Of a DNA stretch of 64,000 bases, positions 30,808 through 50,089 are shown in pieces. Position 1 is the stretch's first letter. Every line of letters begins with the position of its first letter. The DNA is taken from NCBI GenBank assembly GCA_945835885.1, contig CAMAJR010000001.1:7193-71192 (forward strand), read 5' to 3'. A program made the translations under genes and the position numbers. The notes beneath the pieces are model-generated. The model was not told the DNA's origin. It saw only the letters and a list, made by a program, of their open reading frames with translations, and searched no databases. Source of the stretch: an uncultured Alphaproteobacteria bacterium. GTDB taxonomy: Bacteria; Pseudomonadota; Alphaproteobacteria; RF32; CAG-239.

Positions 30808-30933
30808 ATCTCCTTTATTAAACGATTGTTATAGCATAAAAAGTATATAAGAATATTTAAGATTTCATTAAAAGTTGTGAACATACTTAAAAAACGTTGA
30901 TTTTATTTATAAATCGGGTTATTTGTGAATATT

Positions 30934-31346
30934 GAAGGCAATCGGATAGCTGCGTCTCGGAAAGGAAAATCCGAAGATGAGGAAAGTCCGGGCTTCACGG
31001 GAACAAGATACCGGATAACGTCCGGCTGGAGTAATCCACGGGAAAGCGCCGCAGAAAATTACCGCCGCGCAAGTTCGCGGTAAGGTTGAAAAGGCGAGGT
31101 AAGAGCTCACCGCGTGCGCAGTAATGCGTGCGGCAAGGCAAGCCCTATCTGATGTAAGACCAAATGAGGAGGGTTTCGTGCTTTCGGGCATTAAATTACA
31201 CGGGGTGTTTCCGACCCGCTCCAGAGGTAGGTCGCACCAGTCAAGCGGAAACGCTTGGCGCAGATGAATAGCTATCGTGCAAAATCTTTGCCGTTTGCGA
31301 CAAAGCAAATTGCATACAGAACTCGGCTTACAGATTGCCTTCTATG
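30934..31346 (+). ncRNA. rnpB: RNase P RNA (bacterial type A)
   Basis: P4 strands GAGGAAAGTCCGGGCT (30978) and ACAGAACTCGGCTTA (31316). GGTAAGGTTGAAAAGGCGAGGTAAGAGCTCACCG matches the conserved P10-P12 region. P1 pairing GAAGGCAATC (30934) with GATTGCCTTC (31333). The ORF-track ORF 30919..31308 (-) is spurious. Confidence 0.8.
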
Positions 31347-31364
31347 TTGATTTAGGAGTTATAA

Positions 31365-32222
31365 ATGCAACAAAAAACATTGTCCAAGAAAGTAGAAATC
31401 AGCGGAATCGGTCTGCACAGCGGTTGCGAGAGCAAACTTTTATTTAAGCCGGCACCGATAAATACCGGTATTGTGTTTGTGCGCACGGATTTGAAGGAAC
31501 ATAATCGGTTTCCGGCGCTGTATTCCAATGTGGTTGATACGCGTAATTGCACTTGTTTGGGTAACACCGATAAGCAAATTGTCAGCACGATAGAGCATAT
31601 TATGGCAACTTTGGCGGTTTTGGGGATTGATAATGTCGAAATAGAGGTAAATAATCCGGAAGTACCGATTATGGACGGCAGTGCCAAAGTGTTTTATGAT
31701 ATTTTGAAAAAAGTGCCGCTTGTTGAGCAAAGTGCAGTAAAGAAGTTTTTGAAAATTAAAAAACAGGTTGCGTTTAAAGACGATAAAGGAAATTATGTGA
31801 TTTTGAAACCGGCTGAGACGTTTAAGATACATTTTACGATAGATTTTCCGTCGGCAATTGTCGGGCATCAGGAATTTGTCGGTGATATAATCGAAAAAAA
31901 CTTCGCTACACAAATCGCCCCCTCACGCACGTTTTGCGAAAAATATCAGGTTGATTATTTGCAGTCAATCGGTTTGATTAAGGGCGGAAGTTTAGATAAT
32001 GCGGTAGTGCTTGACGGTGAAACAATTTTGAACGATGGCGGTTTTAGAGTGCAAAATGAATGCGTTAATCATAAAACACTTGATTGCATCGGTGATATGC
32101 TGACTTCGGGATATTATATTATCGGTGAAGTTGAGGCGTTTCACAGCGGTCACTTTCACAATAACGAAGTGTTGAAAAAATTATTTGAAAATACTGAAAA
32201 TTACGAAATTACAGAGGATTAA
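31365..32222 (+). CDS. lpxC: UDP-3-O-acyl-N-acetylglucosamine deacetylase
   Basis: 285 aa. N-terminal QKTLSKKVEISGIGLHSG and full LpxC similarity. Confidence 0.9.
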   Translation: MQQKTLSKKVEISGIGLHSGCESKLLFKPAPINTGIVFVRTDLKEHNRFPALYSNVVDTRNCTCLGNTDKQIVSTIEHIMATLAVLGIDNVEIEVNNPEVPIMDGSAKVFYDILKKVPLVEQSAVKKFLKIKKQVAFKDDKGNYVILKPAETFKIHFTIDFPSAIVGHQEFVGDIIEKNFATQIAPSRTFCEKYQVDYLQSIGLIKGGSLDNAVVLDGETILNDGGFRVQNECVNHKTLDCIGDMLTSGYYIIGEVEAFHSGHFHNNEVLKKLFENTENYEITED

Positions 32223-32223
32223 A

Positions 32224-34098
32224 ATGAAAAAATATTATACGATACTCAGTGCGTTTTTATTGTTGACAGCTTGTTCAAATTCAATCGATTTGCAAACCAT
32301 GTCGGCTGAAGAAATTTATAACTATGCGATGGATGAGCTGGAAAAGACACGTTATGTCAAGGCGGAAACGGCATTTGAAACACTCGAAACCGACCATCCG
32401 TATTCGCAGTGGGCTGTGCGTGCAAAATTGATGGGTGCGTATGCGTATTATAAAGATGAAAAATATGATGAAGCGGTTATGGCTGTAGATCGGTTTATCA
32501 AATATCATCCGGGCAATAAAGATGTGCCGTATGCGTTGTATTTGAAAGGTATGTGCTATTATGACCAGATTTCAGCCGCCGATAAGGATCAGGGAAACAC
32601 GCAAAAAGCAGCAGAAACGTTCACTCTGTTGATGGTTATGTATCCGGATTCGGAATATGCAAAAGATGCGGCAGGCAAAATGAATCTGACGGAAGATTAC
32701 AAAGCCGGTCAGGAAATGATTGTCGGACGCTACTATTTGCATGAAGGTAATTATTTGTCCGCGCTTAATCGGTTTAATGTGGTGCTTGAAAATTATCAAA
32801 AAACCATTCAAATAGAAGAAGCGTTGTATCGTGAAGTTGAAATTTATGCTATTTTCGGTTTGAACAATTATGCAGACGGCTATTTTAAAATCCTGCAAAA
32901 GAATTATCCGGACGGGAAATGGACGGCAAAGGCCGAAAAAATTATGAATAAGATTGGTGCAAAAACTAAACCGAGTAAAGCAATAATGGCACCGACGGTA
33001 TCATCAAACACAAAACAAACGCAAGAAGAAAGCAAAGGTTGGTTCAGCGGTTGGTTCGGCGGTGATGACGACAAAGCCGAAGACGCGAAGGAGGTTATTG
33101 AGCAAAAGGCGGAGTCGGTTGTTCAAAAGAAAGATGCGGCAACTGCCGAAGAACAAGTCAAAGAAGTGAAAGAAGAAAGCAAAGGTTGGTTCAGCGGTTG
33201 GTTCGGCGATGATGACGACAAAGCCGAAGACGCGAAGGAGGTTATTGAGCAAAAGGCGGAGTCGGTTGTTCAAAAGAAAGATGCGGCAACTGCCGAAGAA
33301 CAAGTCAAAGAAGTGAAAGAAGAAAGCAAAGGTTGGTTCAGCGGTTGGTTCGGCGATGATGACGACAAAGCCGAAGACGCGAAGGAGGTTATTGAGCCAA
33401 AGACGGAGCCGGTTGTTCAAAAGAGAGATGCGGCAACCATAGAAAACGAAGAAAAACAAGCGGAAGCACTTGAAAAAATGGTGACAAGGACCGAAGATTC
33501 GGCAAAAGGAGTCGGCAACGAAAACTCCAGTTGGTATAATGACTGGTTTGGCGAAAACGAAACCGAAAAAGAAAAAACGGTAATCGAGCGCGAGAGTTGG
33601 TTCGACGGTTGGTTCGGCAACAGCAAAGAGGAAGTCAAAGAAATTAACGCCGATACTACAGAAAAAGTCGAAAGTGTTGAAAAAGAAAGTCCAACAGTAT
33701 CCGATGCGGACAAAACTAAAGTGGTTAAAACCGATAATGAACAATCGTTGGCGCAAGTGCGTCAAGAATTGCAAAAAATCGTAGATACGGACGATGCCGA
33801 TGCGGAAGAAGCGTATGAACCAAAGGAAAGACGCAGCGGTTGGTTCAGCGGCTGGTTCCACAGCGGTAGCGAAATTAGCGATGATATGGCTCAAAGCAAA
33901 AAAGAAGCCAATGACACCATAAACGAGACATTGGATCAAACGCATAATGAGATGCAGAACGTTGCAAATACGGCAGAGAAAACTGAACAAACGGCAGAAG
34001 ATGCAGAAGATGCTGCCGAGCCGAAAGAAGAGCATCGCGGTTGGTTCAGCGGATTGTTTGGCGGCGGAACTGTGGCGGGTGATGACAACGCAGAGTAG
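32224..34098 (+). CDS. bamD: outer membrane protein assembly factor BamD (lipoprotein) with ~370-aa C-terminal extension carrying reiterated GWFSGWFG motifs
   Basis: Start ATG 32224, 1 nt after the lpxC stop, with GAGGAT RBS. Lipobox LLLTAC. First ~265 aa are TPR-like BamD/YfiO. The remainder is acidic/Lys-rich, with 7 W-F-x-G-(W/L)-F-G motifs and three near-identical 49-aa repeats. Confidence 0.7.
   Translation: MKKYYTILSAFLLLTACSNSIDLQTMSAEEIYNYAMDELEKTRYVKAETAFETLETDHPYSQWAVRAKLMGAYAYYKDEKYDEAVMAVDRFIKYHPGNKDVPYALYLKGMCYYDQISAADKDQGNTQKAAETFTLLMVMYPDSEYAKDAAGKMNLTEDYKAGQEMIVGRYYLHEGNYLSALNRFNVVLENYQKTIQIEEALYREVEIYAIFGLNNYADGYFKILQKNYPDGKWTAKAEKIMNKIGAKTKPSKAIMAPTVSSNTKQTQEESKGWFSGWFGGDDDKAEDAKEVIEQKAESVVQKKDAATAEEQVKEVKEESKGWFSGWFGDDDDKAEDAKEVIEQKAESVVQKKDAATAEEQVKEVKEESKGWFSGWFGDDDDKAEDAKEVIEPKTEPVVQKRDAATIENEEKQAEALEKMVTRTEDSAKGVGNENSSWYNDWFGENETEKEKTVIERESWFDGWFGNSKEEVKEINADTTEKVESVEKESPTVSDADKTKVVKTDNEQSLAQVRQELQKIVDTDDADAEEAYEPKERRSGWFSGWFHSGSEISDDMAQSKKEANDTINETLDQTHNEMQNVANTAEKTEQTAEDAEDAAEPKEEHRGWFSGLFGGGTVAGDDNAE
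33031..33471 (+). repeat. three tandem 147-bp direct repeats inside the bamD 3' region
   Basis: The unit starting agcaaaggttggttcagcgg recurs at 33031, 33178 and 33325 (exact 147-bp period). Copies 1-2 are nearly identical; copy 3 diverges in its second half. Confidence 0.9.
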
Positions 34099-34110: not shown

Positions 34111-35778
34111 ATGCTGAAATCACTCTCAATCCGAAATGTGATTTTGATTGATAAACTCGATTTAGATTTATCCGGTGGCTTTACTGTGCTCAGCGGTGAA
34201 ACCGGAGCCGGTAAATCTATATTGCTTGATTCGCTCGGGTTGCTTTTGGGACAACGTGCTGAAACATCGATGATTCGGTCGGGTTGTGACAAGCTCAGCG
34301 TCAGCGGTACTTTTGAGTATGCCGATAAAGACGGCGGTTTGGCACGCCTTTGTGCCGAACACGAATTGGAATATGAGCACGATATTTTAATCAGTCGCAC
34401 ATTGTCGCAAGACGGACGCGGCAAAATCTTTTTTAATGACCAGCCGATTACGCAAAAACTCTTGAAAGAAATCGGCTCGTTTTTGGTTGAAGTGCACGGG
34501 CAGTTCGATAATCAAGGGCTGTTGAATCCGGCAACACATTTAAGTGTGTTGGACGGTTATGGACGTTATCCGGCGGCGCTGAGTACGCTAAAGCAGGCCT
34601 ACGCGTGTTATAAAGAGGCGCAGAAAGCCCGTGAGATTGCTGAAAAAAATCTGACAGACGCGCAAACGGAAGAAGAAAATCTACGGCATTGGGTGCAGGA
34701 ATTTGCCGTAATTAAGCCGCGCGAAAATGAGCTTGATGAACTTGAACAAAAACGACAACTGATGATGAATGCCGAAAAATTGGCAGGCAATTTCAGTGCC
34801 GCTTATCAGTCACTTAACGGCTCGGCGCAGAGTGTGCGCGATAGTTTGCGGCAGGCCGAATCGGCAATTTCGCGGATTAACGGCTTAACTGATGACCAGT
34901 TCGTCAATATTTATGAAATGTTAGATACGGCACTGGTAAATGTAACAGAAGCAAGCAACGAAATTGAAAACGCACTCGGTGAAATCAATGTAAATCAAAA
35001 CGAGGCGGATAGTGTGGAAGAGCGTTTGTTCACACTCAAGGATTTGGCGCGCAAACATCATGTGGCTGTTGAAAATTTGCCGAATATTTGGCATGAAATG
35101 GAAGAAAAATTGTTGCATCTTGAACGCGGTGCCGATGATTTGAATGCGTTAAAACGTGCCGAAAAGCAGGCATTTGATGAATATGTTTTGAAAGCTGACG
35201 CTGTGCATTTTGAACGAATCGCGGCGGCCGAAAAATTAGATGCGGCTATGCGGCGTGAATTGCCGGCACTTAAAATGGAAAAGGCCGTATTTCAAACGCA
35301 AATCAATAAAAAAGCTGAAAATATGTGGAACGAAAACGGCTATGATGACGTGTGCTTTATGGTATCGACCAATGTCGGCACGCCTTTCGGCAGTTTAAGC
35401 AAAATCGCCTCGGGCGGCGAATTGGCGCGTTTTATGTTGGCACTTAAGGTTAATTTAGGACAAGCCGGTGCAATCGAAACAATGATTTTTGACGAAGTTG
35501 ATACCGGTATCGGGGGCGCAACGGCGCAGGCAGTCGGTGAAAAATTGGCGCAACTCGGTGCAAACAAGCAGGTTTTGGTGGTAACGCATTCGCCGCAAGT
35601 TGCCGCATTCGGCGCACACCATTTTAAGGTGGAAAAATTCAATGCCGACGGCGCAACCACAACGACGGTGCGTTTGCTCTCCGTAACCGAGAAACAGGAA
35701 GAAATCGCACGGATGCTGTCCGGTGAAATAATCAGTGATGAAGCACGAGCGGCGGCAAAAGTTTTGATTGGAGCGTAA
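34111..35778 (+). CDS. recN: DNA repair protein RecN
   Basis: 555 aa. N-terminal Walker A GETGAGKSILLD, long coiled coils, C-terminal SMC signature/Walker B. Confidence 0.9.
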   Translation: MLKSLSIRNVILIDKLDLDLSGGFTVLSGETGAGKSILLDSLGLLLGQRAETSMIRSGCDKLSVSGTFEYADKDGGLARLCAEHELEYEHDILISRTLSQDGRGKIFFNDQPITQKLLKEIGSFLVEVHGQFDNQGLLNPATHLSVLDGYGRYPAALSTLKQAYACYKEAQKAREIAEKNLTDAQTEEENLRHWVQEFAVIKPRENELDELEQKRQLMMNAEKLAGNFSAAYQSLNGSAQSVRDSLRQAESAISRINGLTDDQFVNIYEMLDTALVNVTEASNEIENALGEINVNQNEADSVEERLFTLKDLARKHHVAVENLPNIWHEMEEKLLHLERGADDLNALKRAEKQAFDEYVLKADAVHFERIAAAEKLDAAMRRELPALKMEKAVFQTQINKKAENMWNENGYDDVCFMVSTNVGTPFGSLSKIASGGELARFMLALKVNLGQAGAIETMIFDEVDTGIGGATAQAVGEKLAQLGANKQVLVVTHSPQVAAFGAHHFKVEKFNADGATTTTVRLLSVTEKQEEIARMLSGEIISDEARAAAKVLIGA

Positions 35779-49015: not shown

Positions 49016-49990
49016 TTACAAGTTAATAACCGCAACTTTATGCAACTTTGTCAAATCGCTGTTAGAAAAGTTTATTCTCTCGTCAGGATTCCAACGCAAA
49101 CCGTAAAGTTGACCGTTTTCATCTTCGCGAATACTGAGTAATTTTGTTTCGGTATCGCTTGCGTAAAACAAAGCTATGTCACCGGAACTTACGACTTCGT
49201 TCGGATCAATAATCAAAACGGAGCGACTGGACAATAAAGAGCCCAAACGCCGAGAGCACAAGTTGACCGCATAAATATTGTGCTTATGCTGCAACTGGGT
49301 AGGGCAAGCGATTTCTTTAAAATTGGTGCGTGTGTCTATAATGATGTTGCCTTCACTGTCACCAGAACCGTAGACCGGTATCATAATATCATTATCACTT
49401 TCTGTAGATGAAAGACCGATGTTAGCGTAACGTGCATTGTTCAAAAGTTTGTAACGTGTGTCGTTATGTTCGATAATATCTTCGAGCTGTCCGCCGGCTT
49501 CAAGCGCTTGAATTTCGGCCTTAAGCTTATCAACCGTAGTAGAAAAAGCTTTGGCAATATTTTTGTATTCTTTATCGGAAACTTCGCGTTGTCCCATTTC
49601 AATACGATGGTAGACGGAAAGAGTCATATCTGCGTGTTCGGCAACTTCAATCAAGGTCAGTCCCTTATTGGTGCGGATATGGCGTAAGCCGGCTCCAAGT
49701 GTCTTCAGTCCGGCAGTCTGATTAATTTTGCTGCGACGCTCTTGCTCACGTTTCCATGCCTGAACAACATCTTGCTGTGAGTTTTGCTCGTTGACGTATA
49801 AATCTTGTAGCGAACAATCAAGTAATTCGGCAACTTGAATCAGCTGTTCTTGATTTAACCGGCGATAACCCTTTTCAATTTTAGAAATAGCAGACAAACT
49901 GACACCCAAATGGTCAGCCAACTCTTGCATCGGCATACCATGCAGGCGACGATGCATTCTTATTTGATTTGGGAAAATAATTTCTTCCAT
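49016..49990 (-). CDS. XRE-family transcriptional regulator with two tandem HTH domains and a C-terminal beta-rich domain
   Basis: ORF track start at 50035 lies in AT-rich DNA. ATG at 49990 (MEEIIFPNQIR...) with AGGGGT RBS is preferred. HTH 1: MQELADHLGVSLSAISKIEKG. HTH 2: LTLIEVAEHADMTLSVYHRIEMG. C-terminal ~150 aa possibly S24/LexA-like, but no clear GDSM. Confidence 0.7.
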   Translation of the reverse strand: MEEIIFPNQIRMHRRLHGMPMQELADHLGVSLSAISKIEKGYRRLNQEQLIQVAELLDCSLQDLYVNEQNSQQDVVQAWKREQERRSKINQTAGLKTLGAGLRHIRTNKGLTLIEVAEHADMTLSVYHRIEMGQREVSDKEYKNIAKAFSTTVDKLKAEIQALEAGGQLEDIIEHNDTRYKLLNNARYANIGLSSTESDNDIMIPVYGSGDSEGNIIIDTRTNFKEIACPTQLQHKHNIYAVNLCSRRLGSLLSSRSVLIIDPNEVVSSGDIALFYASDTETKLLSIREDENGQLYGLRWNPDERINFSNSDLTKLHKVAVINL

Positions 49991-50089
49991 TTTTAACCCC
50001 TGTAAATACATAATATTTAACATCATAATATTCATTTAGGGACAAAATGCAAGCCAAAAATAGCGATTATATACAAAATTTATTTGCGC

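What the first reader, a model, noticed from the sequence alone, without database searches (positions are those of the whole stretch)
32224..34098. BamD with a 370-aa C-terminal extension carrying seven WFxGWFG motifs and three perfect 147-bp repeats
Canonical BamD lipoproteins are about 250-300 aa. Here the TPR-like BamD core is followed by a long acidic/Lys-rich extension punctuated by aromatic W-F-S/D-G-W-F-G motifs (SKGWFSGWFGGDDD x3, SWYNDWFGENE, ESWFDGWFGNS, RSGWFSGWFHSG, HRGWFSGLFGGG). The first three copies sit in near-identical 49-aa repeats, which suggests recent expansion. A reiterated aromatic motif might mediate membrane or peptidoglycan interaction, or partner binding. The antisense ORF 33004..34035 is an artefact of the repeats.
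Basis: seen in the sequence. Interest (0 to 1): 0.6.

Follow-up and report, generated by a model that had tools for sequence, protein, structure and literature searches.

The report
BamD with repeated Trp-Phe tail
This is the ordinary outer-membrane assembly lipoprotein BamD of an uncultured gut alphaproteobacterium, carrying a real, fast-evolving, about 380-residue acidic disordered tail with seven conserved Trp-Phe motifs; the tail is shared by a whole gut/rumen clade, is undescribed, and its function is unknown.

Summary
ORF 32224-34098 (+) is a genuine bamD ortholog. It has a lipobox, a TPR core of aa 1-245 and lpxC-bamD-recN synteny, followed by a tail of about 380 aa. The tail is acidic (net charge -50), mostly disordered, and holds seven W[FY]x[GD][WL]F motifs. 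Composition-preserving shuffles give 0.00016 motifs.

The 147-bp repeats are not three perfect copies. Copies 1 and 2 differ by 1 nt. Copy 3 matches for 81 nt and then diverges.

The tail is not a fusion or assembly artefact. The identical gene occurs in an independent assembly. Strain variants carry two or three units. More than 100 related BamDs from gut and rumen alphaproteobacterial MAGs have such tails.

Repeat units are homogenised within lineages and linkers diverge, but the W/F residues are conserved. More distant BamDs, including that of P. aeruginosa, often end in one similar short motif. The same K-GWFxGWFG-D/E cassette occurs in phage tape-measure proteins.

My best guess at mechanism, with low confidence, is that the motifs are multivalent hydrophobic anchors that insert at a membrane interface, held on a polyanionic periplasmic tether. 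Binding to a protein partner is the main rival.

I found no paper describing this tail. I rate it a new variant of a known kind, of moderate interest.

The parts
32224..32274 (+). Lipoprotein signal peptide and lipobox (MKKYYTILSAFLLLTAC, Cys17)
   Evidence: Read directly from the sequence. M1 and C17 are invariant in 60 homologs.
32224..32958 (+). BamD core (TPR superhelix, aa 1-245)
   Evidence: Pfam YfiO 159.6 bits (cut-off 25) and TIGR03302 236.6 bits (cut-off 81.4). AF2 pLDDT is about 90 with 12 helices. Foldseek top hits are solved BamD structures, e.g. 5waq at 5.5e-15 and 5d0o_D with TMt 0.87.
32959..34095 (+). C-terminal tail (aa 246-624): acidic and mostly disordered
   Evidence: Net charge -50. 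All 263 residues with pLDDT below 50 lie in the tail. No Pfam or NCBIfam family matches it.
33023..33463 (+). Tandem 147-bp (49-aa) units: two near-identical copies plus a third that diverges after 81 nt
   Evidence: TRF period 147, 2.8 copies, 98%. One unit (33252-33398) is absent in strain variant P0002 (L002, L003).
33040..33057 (+). Motif 1, WFSGWF (aa 273-278)
   Evidence: Wimley-White interfacial energy of the 8-mer is -5.8 kcal/mol.
33187..33204 (+). Motif 2, WFSGWF (aa 322-327)
33334..33351 (+). Motif 3, WFSGWF (aa 371-376)
33532..33549 (+). Motif 4, WYNDWF (aa 437-442)
   Evidence: Interfacial energy -4.0 kcal/mol.
33598..33615 (+). Motif 5, WFDGWF (aa 459-464)
   Evidence: Interfacial energy -4.6 kcal/mol.
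33841..33858 (+). Motif 6, WFSGWF (aa 540-545)
   Evidence: Interfacial energy -5.7 kcal/mol.
34042..34059 (+). Motif 7, WFSGLF (aa 607-612), 12 residues before the C-terminus
   Evidence: Interfacial energy -4.5 kcal/mol. The element GWFSGLF(S/G)GGT..DD.AE is conserved in P0003-P0007 and P0011.
33430..33501 (+). Predicted helical island, aa 403-426
   Evidence: AF2 helix; the 10-residue block means of pLDDT are 65-74.
33736..33789 (+). Predicted helical island, aa 505-522
   Evidence: AF2 helix; block means of pLDDT are 56-79.
33868..34008 (+). Predicted long helix, aa 549-595 (SEISDDMAQSKKEANDTINETL...)
   Evidence: AF2 helix with pLDDT 65-85. The segment is conserved in P0003-P0006 and P0009.
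33004..34035 (-). Antisense ORF of 343 aa; not a gene
   Evidence: It is in phase 0 with the bamD codons. It ends at the only TCA codons of the tail (codons 260-261), and the tail has no TTA or CTA codon. It has no Pfam hit.
31365..32222 (+). lpxC, the upstream neighbour (synteny marker)
   Evidence: PF03331 on the identical contig. The lpxC-bamD-recN order is conserved in alphaproteobacterial loci.
34111..35778 (+). recN, the intact downstream neighbour, which rules out a fusion
   Evidence: ORF of 555 aa. SMC_N and AAA_23 domains. Synteny.

Best explanation
SHOWN. The gene is the housekeeping bamD ortholog of an uncultured gut-associated alphaproteobacterium. Its TPR core is followed by a lineage-specific tail of about 380 aa. 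The tail is polyanionic and largely disordered, and it was built by tandem duplication of units of the form acidic linker plus K-(S/G)-W-F-S-G-W-F-G-G-D-D. The tail arose once at the base of a gut/rumen clade. It evolves much faster than the core through substitution and gain or loss of units, yet its Trp and Phe residues are under clear constraint.

INFERRED, moderate confidence. The array is an amplification of a single short hydrophobic or aromatic motif. Many proteobacterial BamDs carry such a motif at or near the C-terminus. Examples are ...SWISRQWNKVF and ...KFLGLF in Alphaproteobacteria, WKIW in Betaproteobacteria, and RSWLNIITLGLLG in Gammaproteobacteria, with RSWLAKATLGLIEG in P. aeruginosa.

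INFERRED, low confidence: the mechanism. Each W/F motif acts as a small hydrophobic sticker that partitions into the interfacial region of a phospholipid leaflet. The target would be the inner leaflet of the outer membrane next to BAM. Given the reach of a 380-residue charged coil, it could possibly also be the periplasmic face of the inner membrane. The acidic spacers keep the chain extended and soluble and stop the stickers from aggregating. The array would then give BamD several weak, reversible extra membrane contacts, that is, avidity.
For: Identity:
- Pfam and TIGR scores are far above their cut-offs.
- The AF2 core is confident and Foldseek's top hits are solved BamDs.
- The lipobox is invariant across homologs.
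- lpxC-bamD-recN synteny holds across Alphaproteobacteria.

The tail is real:
- The identical gene is present in an independent ENA assembly.
- Strains P0138 and P0139 also have three units, with more diverged copies that assemblers can resolve.
- All 120 best homologs have tails of 113-387 aa, and 118 of them carry at least one motif.

Clade-wide, single origin:
- An NJ tree of the cores puts all tail-bearers in one clade. L030 and L031 are tail-less sisters. L025 and L021 are nested losses.

Constraint on the motif:
- Against P0003 the core is 93.9% identical and the tail 65.5%, but 38 of 42 motif residues are identical.
- W is 100% and F 96-100% conserved at their motif positions across the unique instances (143 of class A, 93 of class B).
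- Within-protein units have a median best identity of 0.83, whereas the linker against other lineages reaches 0.375.

Hydrophobic-insertion reading:
- Wimley-White interfacial energies are -4.0 to -5.8 kcal/mol per 8-mer. On the same scale the PBP5 C-terminal anchor gives -4.55 and the MinD membrane-targeting sequence -1.56; both comparator sequences were typed from my memory.
- Across lineages W and F are replaced by L or I (GLFGG, SRLFG, LGLLG). Hydrophobicity is kept, not aromaticity.
- The same basic-GWFxGWFG-acidic cassette recurs in unrelated envelope-crossing proteins. These include phage tape-measure proteins (P0128, P0130, L171, L186, the L085 family) and a signal-peptide LHH nuclease (P0131). 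It also recurs in Cryptosporidium giant proteins. This argues for a generic target such as a bilayer.
- AF2 gives no confident docking of any motif onto the TPR core; the motif blocks have pLDDT 35-46.
Against: - There is no experimental or structural evidence for lipid binding.
- The motif is only 6-8 residues long and Gly-rich. It shows no significant helical or strand hydrophobic moment.
- The tail is strongly anionic, which should be repelled by anionic phospholipid surfaces unless divalent cations screen the charge.
- The nearest outgroups (L030-L036, L048) have no C-terminal motif at all. 'Amplification of an ancestral motif' could therefore be de novo origin with convergence.
- The motif in phage proteins and in a eukaryote may be convergent and serve a different function.
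- Copy number in short-read assemblies of a 147-bp near-perfect repeat is inherently uncertain.
Confidence: 0.4

Rival explanations
1. The motifs are short linear motifs that bind a protein partner rather than lipid. Candidates are a hydrophobic groove of BamD's own TPR domain (pseudo-substrate or autoregulation, or a substitute for the BamC/BamF N-terminal lasso), BamA POTRA or beta-strand 1 (beta-signal mimicry), or a periplasmic chaperone such as SurA that recognises aromatic-rich OMP segments. The array would then act as a multivalent fly-casting recruiter or as a regulator of BAM.
For: - BamD is known to bind OMP targeting signals rich in aromatic and hydrophobic residues, and short Trp-rich peptides bind BamA beta-strand 1 (the Llp paper).
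- Many single-motif BamDs end exactly on an aromatic residue, as OMP beta-signals do (NKVF, LGLF, YKFW, WKIW).
- The motif residues are strongly conserved.
Against: - The dominant form WFSGWF has adjacent aromatics (positions i, i+1, i+4, i+5). It lacks the alternating aromatic-x-aromatic dyad of beta-signals, darobactin and Llp peptides.
- Six of the seven motifs are internal and are followed by Asp or Glu.
- AF2 does not dock any motif on the TPR core.
- The cassette also occurs in phage tape-measure proteins and in a eukaryote, which do not share a BAM partner.
Confidence: 0.25
2. The tail is a sticker-and-spacer disordered region. Its aromatic motifs associate with each other, as in FG-nucleoporin or condensate behaviour, and so cluster BAM complexes into assembly precincts or form a periplasmic meshwork around BAM.
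For: - The architecture is regularly spaced W/F stickers separated by charged spacers.
- Valency varies from 1 to 8 motifs.
- GLFG-like variants occur (SGLFGGG).
Against: - A net charge of -50 opposes self-association.
- There is no evidence for clustering.
- Single-motif BamDs are common, and one sticker cannot build a network.
Confidence: 0.1
3. The tail interacts with the cell wall or simply fills space. The aromatic residues would stack on peptidoglycan sugars, or the polyanionic chain would act as a spacer or cation buffer in the periplasm.
For: - Repeated aromatic/Gly motifs are typical of cell-wall-binding repeats (my own knowledge).
- The chain is long and acidic.
- Tape-measure proteins also have to cross peptidoglycan.
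Against: - There is no match to any cell-wall-binding family.
- W and F are replaced by L or I in related motifs, which does not fit sugar stacking.
- A pure spacer role does not explain 100% conservation of W and F.
Confidence: 0.1
4. The tail is exported to the cell surface and is a variable, host-facing repeat antigen of gut bacteria.
For: Copy number varies between strains and the linkers diverge fast, as in surface antigens. All carriers are host-associated.
Against: BamD is periplasmic in all solved BAM complexes. No surface-export signal was identified. The conserved element is the hydrophobic motif, not what immune evasion would preserve.
Confidence: 0.04
5. It is an artefact: a frameshift, gene fusion or mis-assembly creates a false long ORF.
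For: Near-identical 147-bp repeats are hard for short-read assemblers, so the exact copy number could be wrong.
Against: - The identical sequence is present in an independent assembly.
- Strains exist with three diverged units.
- More than 100 homologs share the architecture.
- recN is intact downstream.
- The motif is conserved in the reading frame across the clade.
Confidence: 0.02

Closest known systems
Canonical BamD (YfiO/ComL), e.g. E. coli BamD of 245 aa and N. gonorrhoeae BamD
   Same: It has a lipobox, a five-TPR core and family scores above the curated cut-offs. The fold superposes on solved BamD with TMt up to 0.87.
   Different: It has about 380 extra C-terminal residues, which are disordered, acidic and carry seven W/F motifs. 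The E. coli equivalog model NF008119 scores 97.8 bits against a cut-off of 363.
BamDs with short C-terminal extensions: C. crescentus (about 60 residues, mentioned but not shown in Anwari et al. 2012, PMC3359395) and P. aeruginosa BamD (341 aa, PDB 9pxg_D)
   Same: The extension follows the last TPR helix. It contains a hydrophobic or aromatic motif preceded by a basic residue: RSWLAKATLGLIEG in P. aeruginosa and GDFLHGVLGL in a Caulobacteraceae MAG.
   Different: Those extensions have one or two motif copies, are 15-95 aa long and are not acidic repeat arrays. The window protein has seven copies in 380 aa with tandem units. I found no function reported for those extensions either.
Interfacial membrane anchors: the MinD and FtsA membrane-targeting sequences, the PBP5 C-terminal anchor, and ALPS motifs (from my own knowledge)
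   Same: They are short stretches rich in bulky hydrophobic residues plus Gly/Ser, with a neighbouring basic residue. The computed interfacial free energy here is as good as or better than theirs.
   Different: The window motif is much shorter (6-8 aa), is not measurably amphipathic, is repeated many times and sits in a polyanionic chain. Membrane binding has not been tested.
Beta-signal mimics that bind BamA beta-strand 1 (OMP beta-signal, darobactin, Llp C-terminal peptides; bioRxiv 10.64898/2026.09.25.754295)
   Same: They are short Trp/Phe-rich peptides functionally linked to BAM.
   Different: Those mimics use an alternating aromatic-x-aromatic dyad with a cap near the C-terminus. The window motif has adjacent W-F pairs, is mostly internal and is followed by acidic residues.
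Outer-membrane lipoproteins with long disordered regions that reach across the periplasm (LpoA, LpoB; from my own knowledge)
   Same: An outer-membrane-anchored lipoprotein carries a long flexible region able to span periplasmic distances.
   Different: In LpoB the linker is N-terminal and delivers a folded domain. Here the disordered region is C-terminal and delivers only short motifs.
K-GWFxGWFG-D/E cassettes in phage tape-measure proteins
   Same: The motif and its charge pattern are the same: KKSGWFSGWFGDDEE in L186, KKSGGWFGGWFGDDEEEE in L171, and REKGWFDSWFGGDDEEE in P0128.
   Different: These have one to five copies, lying after the hydrophobic segments of a PhageMin_Tail protein. No homology extends beyond the cassette.

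Membership tests
BamD (YfiO; Pfam PF13525 / TIGR03302) | Profile match above the curated cut-off | tested here: met
   PF13525 scores 159.6 bits against a cut-off of 25. TIGR03302 scores 236.6 bits against 81.4.
BamD (YfiO; Pfam PF13525 / TIGR03302) | N-terminal lipoprotein signal peptide with a lipobox Cys | tested here: met
   The sequence is LLLTAC with Cys17. M1 and C17 are invariant in 60 homologs.
BamD (YfiO; Pfam PF13525 / TIGR03302) | TPR superhelix fold like solved BamD | tested here: met
   AF2 core pLDDT is about 90. The Foldseek top 27 hits are BamD chains, with E down to 5.5e-15 and TMt up to 0.87.
BamD (YfiO; Pfam PF13525 / TIGR03302) | Orthologous genomic position (lpxC-bamD-recN in Alphaproteobacteria) | tested here: met
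   tblastn finds lpxC upstream and recN downstream in most alphaproteobacterial loci, including distant ones (L037, L041, L043, L047, L050).
BamD (YfiO; Pfam PF13525 / TIGR03302) | Association with BamA and a requirement for OMP assembly | not testable with these tools
   This needs biochemistry or genetics.
E. coli-type BamD equivalog (NF008119) | Score above the equivalog cut-off | tested here: not met
   It scores 97.8 bits against a cut-off of 363, as expected for a distant alphaproteobacterial ortholog.
Interfacial or amphipathic membrane-binding motif (MTS/ALPS-like) | Favourable water-to-interface partitioning energy | tested here: met
   Wimley-White energies are -4.0 to -5.8 kcal/mol per 8-mer at all seven motifs. 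These are the only such minima in the tail.
Interfacial or amphipathic membrane-binding motif (MTS/ALPS-like) | Amphipathic helix periodicity over at least 10-20 residues | tested here: not met
   The hydrophobic moment at 100 degrees is no better than in shuffles (fraction 0.64). The motif is only 6-8 aa long.
Interfacial or amphipathic membrane-binding motif (MTS/ALPS-like) | Demonstrated lipid binding | not testable with these tools
   This needs liposome assays.
Beta-signal / beta-signal mimic | Alternating aromatic-x-aromatic dyad with a C-terminal cap | tested here: not met
   WFSGWF has its aromatics at i, i+1, i+4 and i+5. Six of the seven motifs are internal. Class B, SWFSWF, contains only one F-x-W pair.
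Known cell-wall or choline-binding repeat families | Profile match in the tail | tested here: not met
   No Pfam or NCBIfam family matches the tail at a significant level.

The most novel reading that the evidence does not exclude
The K-(S/G)WFxGWFG-D/E element is a portable periplasmic targeting module for a membrane or for BAM. It would be shared by BamD tails, phage tape-measure proteins and secreted toxins. In this gut clade the amplified array would let the outer-membrane BAM complex physically reach and hold the inner membrane or the Sec translocon, forming a trans-envelope conduit for nascent OMPs. The single motif at the C-terminus of P. aeruginosa-type BamD would be the minimal, overlooked version of the same function.
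Probability: 0.1. Interest if true: 0.8.

Novelty: new variant of a known kind. Interest (0 to 1): 0.48.

Why it matters
BamD is the one universally essential lipoprotein of the beta-barrel assembly machine and is a drug-target candidate. Its C-terminal extensions have been ignored; one paper literally left the extension out of its alignment.

This window shows that a whole clade of gut and rumen Alphaproteobacteria has amplified a small conserved Trp-Phe element into arrays of up to eight copies on a fast-evolving acidic tether. Single copies of a related element sit at the C-terminus of many other BamDs, including that of the tractable P. aeruginosa.

If the element anchors BAM to a membrane or recruits a partner, it is a new functional part of the machine and can be tested directly with peptides and C-terminal truncations. 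Its recurrence in phage tape-measure proteins hints at a general envelope-interaction module.

If it proves to be merely a tolerated accessory, the finding is still a clean example of repeat-driven evolution of a disordered region on an essential protein.

Tried and rejected
1. Fusion, frameshift or mis-assembly: rejected.
2. The antisense ORF as a gene: rejected. It is codon-complementary to bamD, bounded by the only TCA codons of the tail, and has no family hit. I tried synonymous/non-synonymous counts of 20 strain SNPs to tell the strands apart, but they were not decisive: 6 synonymous and 10 non-synonymous in the sense frame against 4 and 12 in the antisense frame.
3. Hydrophobic-moment analysis of the motif as helix or strand: uninformative for the window motif. 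Only the alphaproteobacterial single motif GSWISRQWNKVF is clearly amphipathic as a helix.
4. Known family for the tail: none in Pfam or NCBIfam. The weak PSII_Pbs27, YtxH and DUF hits all have E above 0.02 and fall below their cut-offs.
5. Literature: no paper contains WFSGWF, SWFSWF, WFGGWF or GWFSRLFG. Searches for BamD with C-terminal extension, tail or disordered repeat found only a passing remark in Anwari 2012.
6. I suspected that the 770-aa and 171-aa ORFs at 46-49 kb were bamA and skp. Pfam does not support this.
7. The scan of viral contigs for GWFxGWFG codons gave mostly single, out-of-context, chance-like hits. Only the tape-measure proteins were informative.
8. P0133 looked to me like an L,D-transpeptidase. 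Pfam did not confirm that, so I do not use it.
9. AF2 gave no confident intramolecular docking of the motifs. Coordinates and PAE were not available to inspect.
10. The NJ tree has no bootstrap support and is only a rough guide.
Full report
**What is there**

The ORF 32224..34098 (+) encodes 624 aa. Its ATG lies one base after the lpxC stop and is preceded by GAGGA. All homologs begin at this Met, so the TTG start at 32185 listed by the ORF finder is not used.

Residues 1-17 are a lipoprotein signal peptide with a lipobox Cys (LLLTAC). Residues 2-233 match TIGR03302 BamD (2.6e-70; 236.6 bits against a cut-off of 81.4). Residues 26-218 match Pfam YfiO (1.1e-46).

AlphaFold2, run with 60 homologs, gives a confident all-helical core to residue 244, with pLDDT about 90. 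Foldseek's best PDB matches are solved BamD chains: 5waq at 5.5e-15 and E. coli BamD in the BAM complex at TMt 0.87. Only about 200-230 columns, the core, are aligned.

The gene lies between lpxC and recN, and that order is conserved in alphaproteobacterial loci down to 37-45% identity. This is therefore the housekeeping bamD, not a paralog.

**The tail and the motifs**

Residues 246-624 (nt 32959-34095) contain 98 Asp/Glu and 48 Lys/Arg, for a net charge of -50. No Pfam or NCBIfam family matches this region.

The 263 residues with pLDDT below 50 all lie here. They are interrupted by three predicted helices at 403-426, 505-522 and 549-595.

Seven W[FY]x[GD][WL]F motifs start at aa 273, 322, 371, 437, 459, 540 and 607. 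Every one of the 13 Trp and 13 Phe of the tail belongs to a motif. In 200,000 composition-preserving shuffles the mean motif count was 0.00016, and no shuffle gave two. No other reading frame of the 64-kb window contains the motif.

**The repeats**

TRF finds a 147-bp period with 2.8 copies at 98% identity over 33023-33437.
- Copy 1 (33023-33169) and copy 2 (33170-33316) differ only at 33062.
- Copy 3 (33317-33463) is identical for 81 nt and then has 16 mismatches.

'Three perfect repeats' is therefore an overstatement. 'Two near-perfect units plus a diverging third' is correct.

**Not an artefact**

- The identical 1875-bp gene, with identical flanks, occurs in an independently assembled ENA contig, ERZ11448883 NODE_192.
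- A closely related strain was assembled twice independently (L002, L003). Its sequence differs by 20 SNPs in the gene and 12 in the 3 kb upstream. It lacks exactly one 147-bp unit (33252-33398) and one 9-bp micro-repeat unit (33994-34002).
- Two further strain variants, P0138 (626 aa) and P0139 (621 aa), have three units whose copies differ from one another at several positions. Such copies are easy to assemble.
- recN begins intact 13 nt downstream.

The caveat is that the exact copy number of a near-perfect 147-bp repeat in short-read assemblies remains uncertain without read-level data.

**The antisense ORF**

ORF 33004..34035 (-) is in phase 0 with bamD, so each of its codons is the complement of a bamD codon. 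Antisense stops can arise only from sense TTA, CTA or TCA codons. The tail, which has only 5 Leu, contains none of these except TCA-TCA at codons 260-261. That is exactly where the antisense ORF ends. It has no Pfam match. It is a compositional by-product.

**Relatives**

All 120 best database hits are BamDs of 351-624 aa with tails of 113-387 aa. The window protein is the longest of them. Of the 120, 118 carry at least one motif under a strict pattern. The other two carry aromatic variants: GFWSKTADFLWPWGKDD and KPWWKVFTWGDDE.

Source names and the genome scan place them in uncultured Alphaproteobacteria from rumen, human gut, deer, yak and horse.

In a rough NJ tree of the cores, all tail-bearers form one clade, with core identity to the window of at least 66%. 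L030 and L031 are tail-less sisters. Two nested members have lost the tail or the motif: L025 (7 aa) and L021 (26 aa).

Two motif classes exist:
- Class A: EExK[SG]-WFSGWF-G[GS][DS]DE
- Class B: EETSSS-WF[SG]WF-KSDEQPE

W is 100% conserved and F 96-100%.

Units are homogenised within proteins, with a median best within-protein identity of 0.83 and 30 of 94 proteins at 0.9 or above. The window's linker is only 0.375 identical, at the median, to the best unit of other lineages.

The tail evolves much faster than the core, yet the motif is held:
- P0139: core 100% identical, tail 94.4%, motif residues 42 of 42.
- P0003: core 93.9% identical, tail 65.5%, motif residues 38 of 42.

**A wider pattern**

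Among more distant BamDs from the same scan, 34 of 52 complete sequences end in one short hydrophobic or aromatic element preceded by a basic residue; a few have two.
- Alphaproteobacteria: EGSWISRQWNKVF, DKSWLSRLTSVF, GTRKFLGLF, REPWYKFW, and in Caulobacteraceae ...GDFLHGVLGL at the end of a 71-aa extension.
- Betaproteobacteria: WKIW, WKFWESMY, WQVWR.
- Gammaproteobacteria: ERSWLNIITFGLVG and KRSWLNILTLGLLGD.

P. aeruginosa BamD (341 aa, PDB 9pxg_D) has DTRSWLAKATLGLIEGGE right after the core.

The resemblance of KSWFSRLFG (P0051 and P0074 in the tail clade) to DKSWLSRL...F suggests that the arrays are amplifications of this element. However, the nearest outgroups lack it, so independent origin cannot be excluded.

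**The motif outside BamD**

A 30-column profile of the motif and its flanks was searched against 1.84 billion representative proteins. It found only 17 proteins at E of 1e-3 or better. Besides two BamD representatives, these included:
- Cryptosporidium giant proteins with 7-13 SSWFSGWFGG copies separated by Pro-rich spacers.
- Phage tape-measure proteins, P0128 and P0130, which match PhageMin_Tail.
- A secreted 811-aa protein with KKSFFGGWFKKDK repeated about seven times (P0127).
- A signal-peptide protein with an LHH nuclease domain (P0131).

A codon-level scan of viral contigs gave mostly isolated, chance-like hits. It did recover more tape-measure proteins carrying [K-rich]-GWF(S/G)GWFG-[D/E-rich] just after their hydrophobic segments: L171, L186, and the L085 family on seven contigs.

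The cassette is therefore rare but recurrent in proteins that operate in or cross the cell envelope.

**Mechanism**

Nothing here measures function, so this section is inference.

For hydrophobic insertion into a membrane interface:
- Each motif has a Wimley-White interfacial energy of -4.0 to -5.8 kcal/mol. That is equal to or better than the PBP5 C-terminal anchor on the same scale (the comparator sequences are from my memory).
- W and F are exchangeable with L or I across lineages. That fits hydrophobic burial better than sugar stacking.
- The cassette occurs in unrelated envelope proteins and in a eukaryote, which points to a generic target.
- AF2 shows no docking onto the TPR core.

Using the denatured-chain scaling law, which I recall as Rg = 0.193 N^0.598 nm (Kohn et al. 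2004; from memory), a 379-residue coil has Rg of about 6.7 nm and an r.m.s. end-to-end distance of about 16 nm. The chain could therefore sample much of the periplasm, while the acidic spacers keep it extended and soluble.

Against this reading:
- The motif is short and not measurably amphipathic.
- The chain is strongly anionic.

The main rival is binding to a protein: the BamD groove, BamA, or a chaperone. BAM does recognise aromatic signals, and Trp-rich peptides bind BamA beta-strand 1. However, those peptides use an alternating aromatic dyad with a terminal cap, which the adjacent, internal W-F pairs of this tail do not reproduce.

Self-association, cell-wall binding and surface exposure are less likely, for the reasons given under the rivals.

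**Novelty**

Text searches found no paper with these motif strings. They also found no description of repeat-bearing BamD tails. The only mention of any extension is a figure-legend remark that a 60-residue C-terminal extension of alphaproteobacterial BamD was not shown.

Databases name these proteins simply BamD. The protein is a clear member of a known family with an undescribed accessory region, so I rate it a new variant of a known kind.

Interest is moderate. It is a well-supported, clade-wide, selectively constrained addition to an essential machine, and it has a tractable minimal counterpart in P. aeruginosa. Its function is unknown.

Noticed in passing
window 30934-31346 (+): Bacterial RNase P RNA class A (275 bits, E 1.1e-88) lies between the OMP gene and lpxC. 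The ORFs listed on top of it (30919-31308 and 31352-31687, both on the - strand) are therefore spurious.
   Followed up: partly
window about 41000-64000 (- strand genes): This block of large ORFs has almost no Pfam matches. It includes a 2184-aa protein with an M23 peptidase domain (50090-56647), a double-HTH protein (49016-50035), and proteins of 911, 769, 608 and 513 aa with no significant Pfam match except one marginal SSSPR-51 hit on the 769-aa ORF. It may be a mobile element or prophage-like region.
   Followed up: partly
window 33994-34013: A 9-bp micro-repeat (GCAGAAGAT, 2.2 copies) encodes AEDAEDA. The sister strain (L002, L003) lacks one 9-bp unit (33994-34002), a second slippage polymorphism in the tail.
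   Followed up: yes
L043, L047, L044, L037, L039-L042, L050; L056, L058, L069, L072; L054, L055, L063, L064, L066, L068, L075, L082, L083; PDB 9pxg_D: Many alpha-, beta- and gammaproteobacterial BamDs end in one short hydrophobic or aromatic motif after a basic residue, and a few have two. Examples are SWISRQWNKVF, KFLGLF, WKIW, RSWLNIITLGLLG, and RSWLAKATLGLIEG in P. aeruginosa. I found no published function for it.
   Followed up: partly
P0121-P0126 (Cryptosporidium canis, C. xiaoi and relatives): Giant proteins of 2400-2600 aa carry 7-13 SSWFSGWFGG motifs near the C-terminus, separated by Pro-rich TPAPPPTPT spacers, and end in SSWFSGFGW. The core motif is the same as in the BamD tail, in a eukaryote.
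   Followed up: no
P0128, P0130; L171:3-2783(+), L186:3-2504(-), L085:11429-13381(+): Phage tape-measure (PhageMin_Tail) proteins carry one to five K-rich/GWFxGWFG/acidic cassettes just after their hydrophobic segments.
   Followed up: partly
P0045, P0051, P0052, P0074, P0086, P0099, P0102, P0113, P0119, P0120 (C-termini): Sister lineages of the tail clade end in a second conserved box, VGDII(S/A)xxxKGKK, which the window protein lacks. The window's own sub-lineage instead conserves EISxDMAQSKKxAxxxINExL and a terminal GWFSGLF(S/G)GGTxxxDDxAE.
   Followed up: no
L020 (CAVIDY010000007.1), L024 (CAVEOB010000006.1), L052, L057, L073: Contigs carrying proteobacterial bamD loci (with lpxC and recN in L020 and L024) are deposited under names such as Bacteroidaceae bacterium, [Ruminococcus] gnavus, Flavobacteriales and Enterobacteriaceae. 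They are probably mis-binned or mislabelled MAG contigs.
   Followed up: no
P0014 / L005 tail: One repeat unit has a degenerate motif, KGWFSSNDAED, which lacks the second W-F pair. This shows that individual units decay within an array.
   Followed up: no
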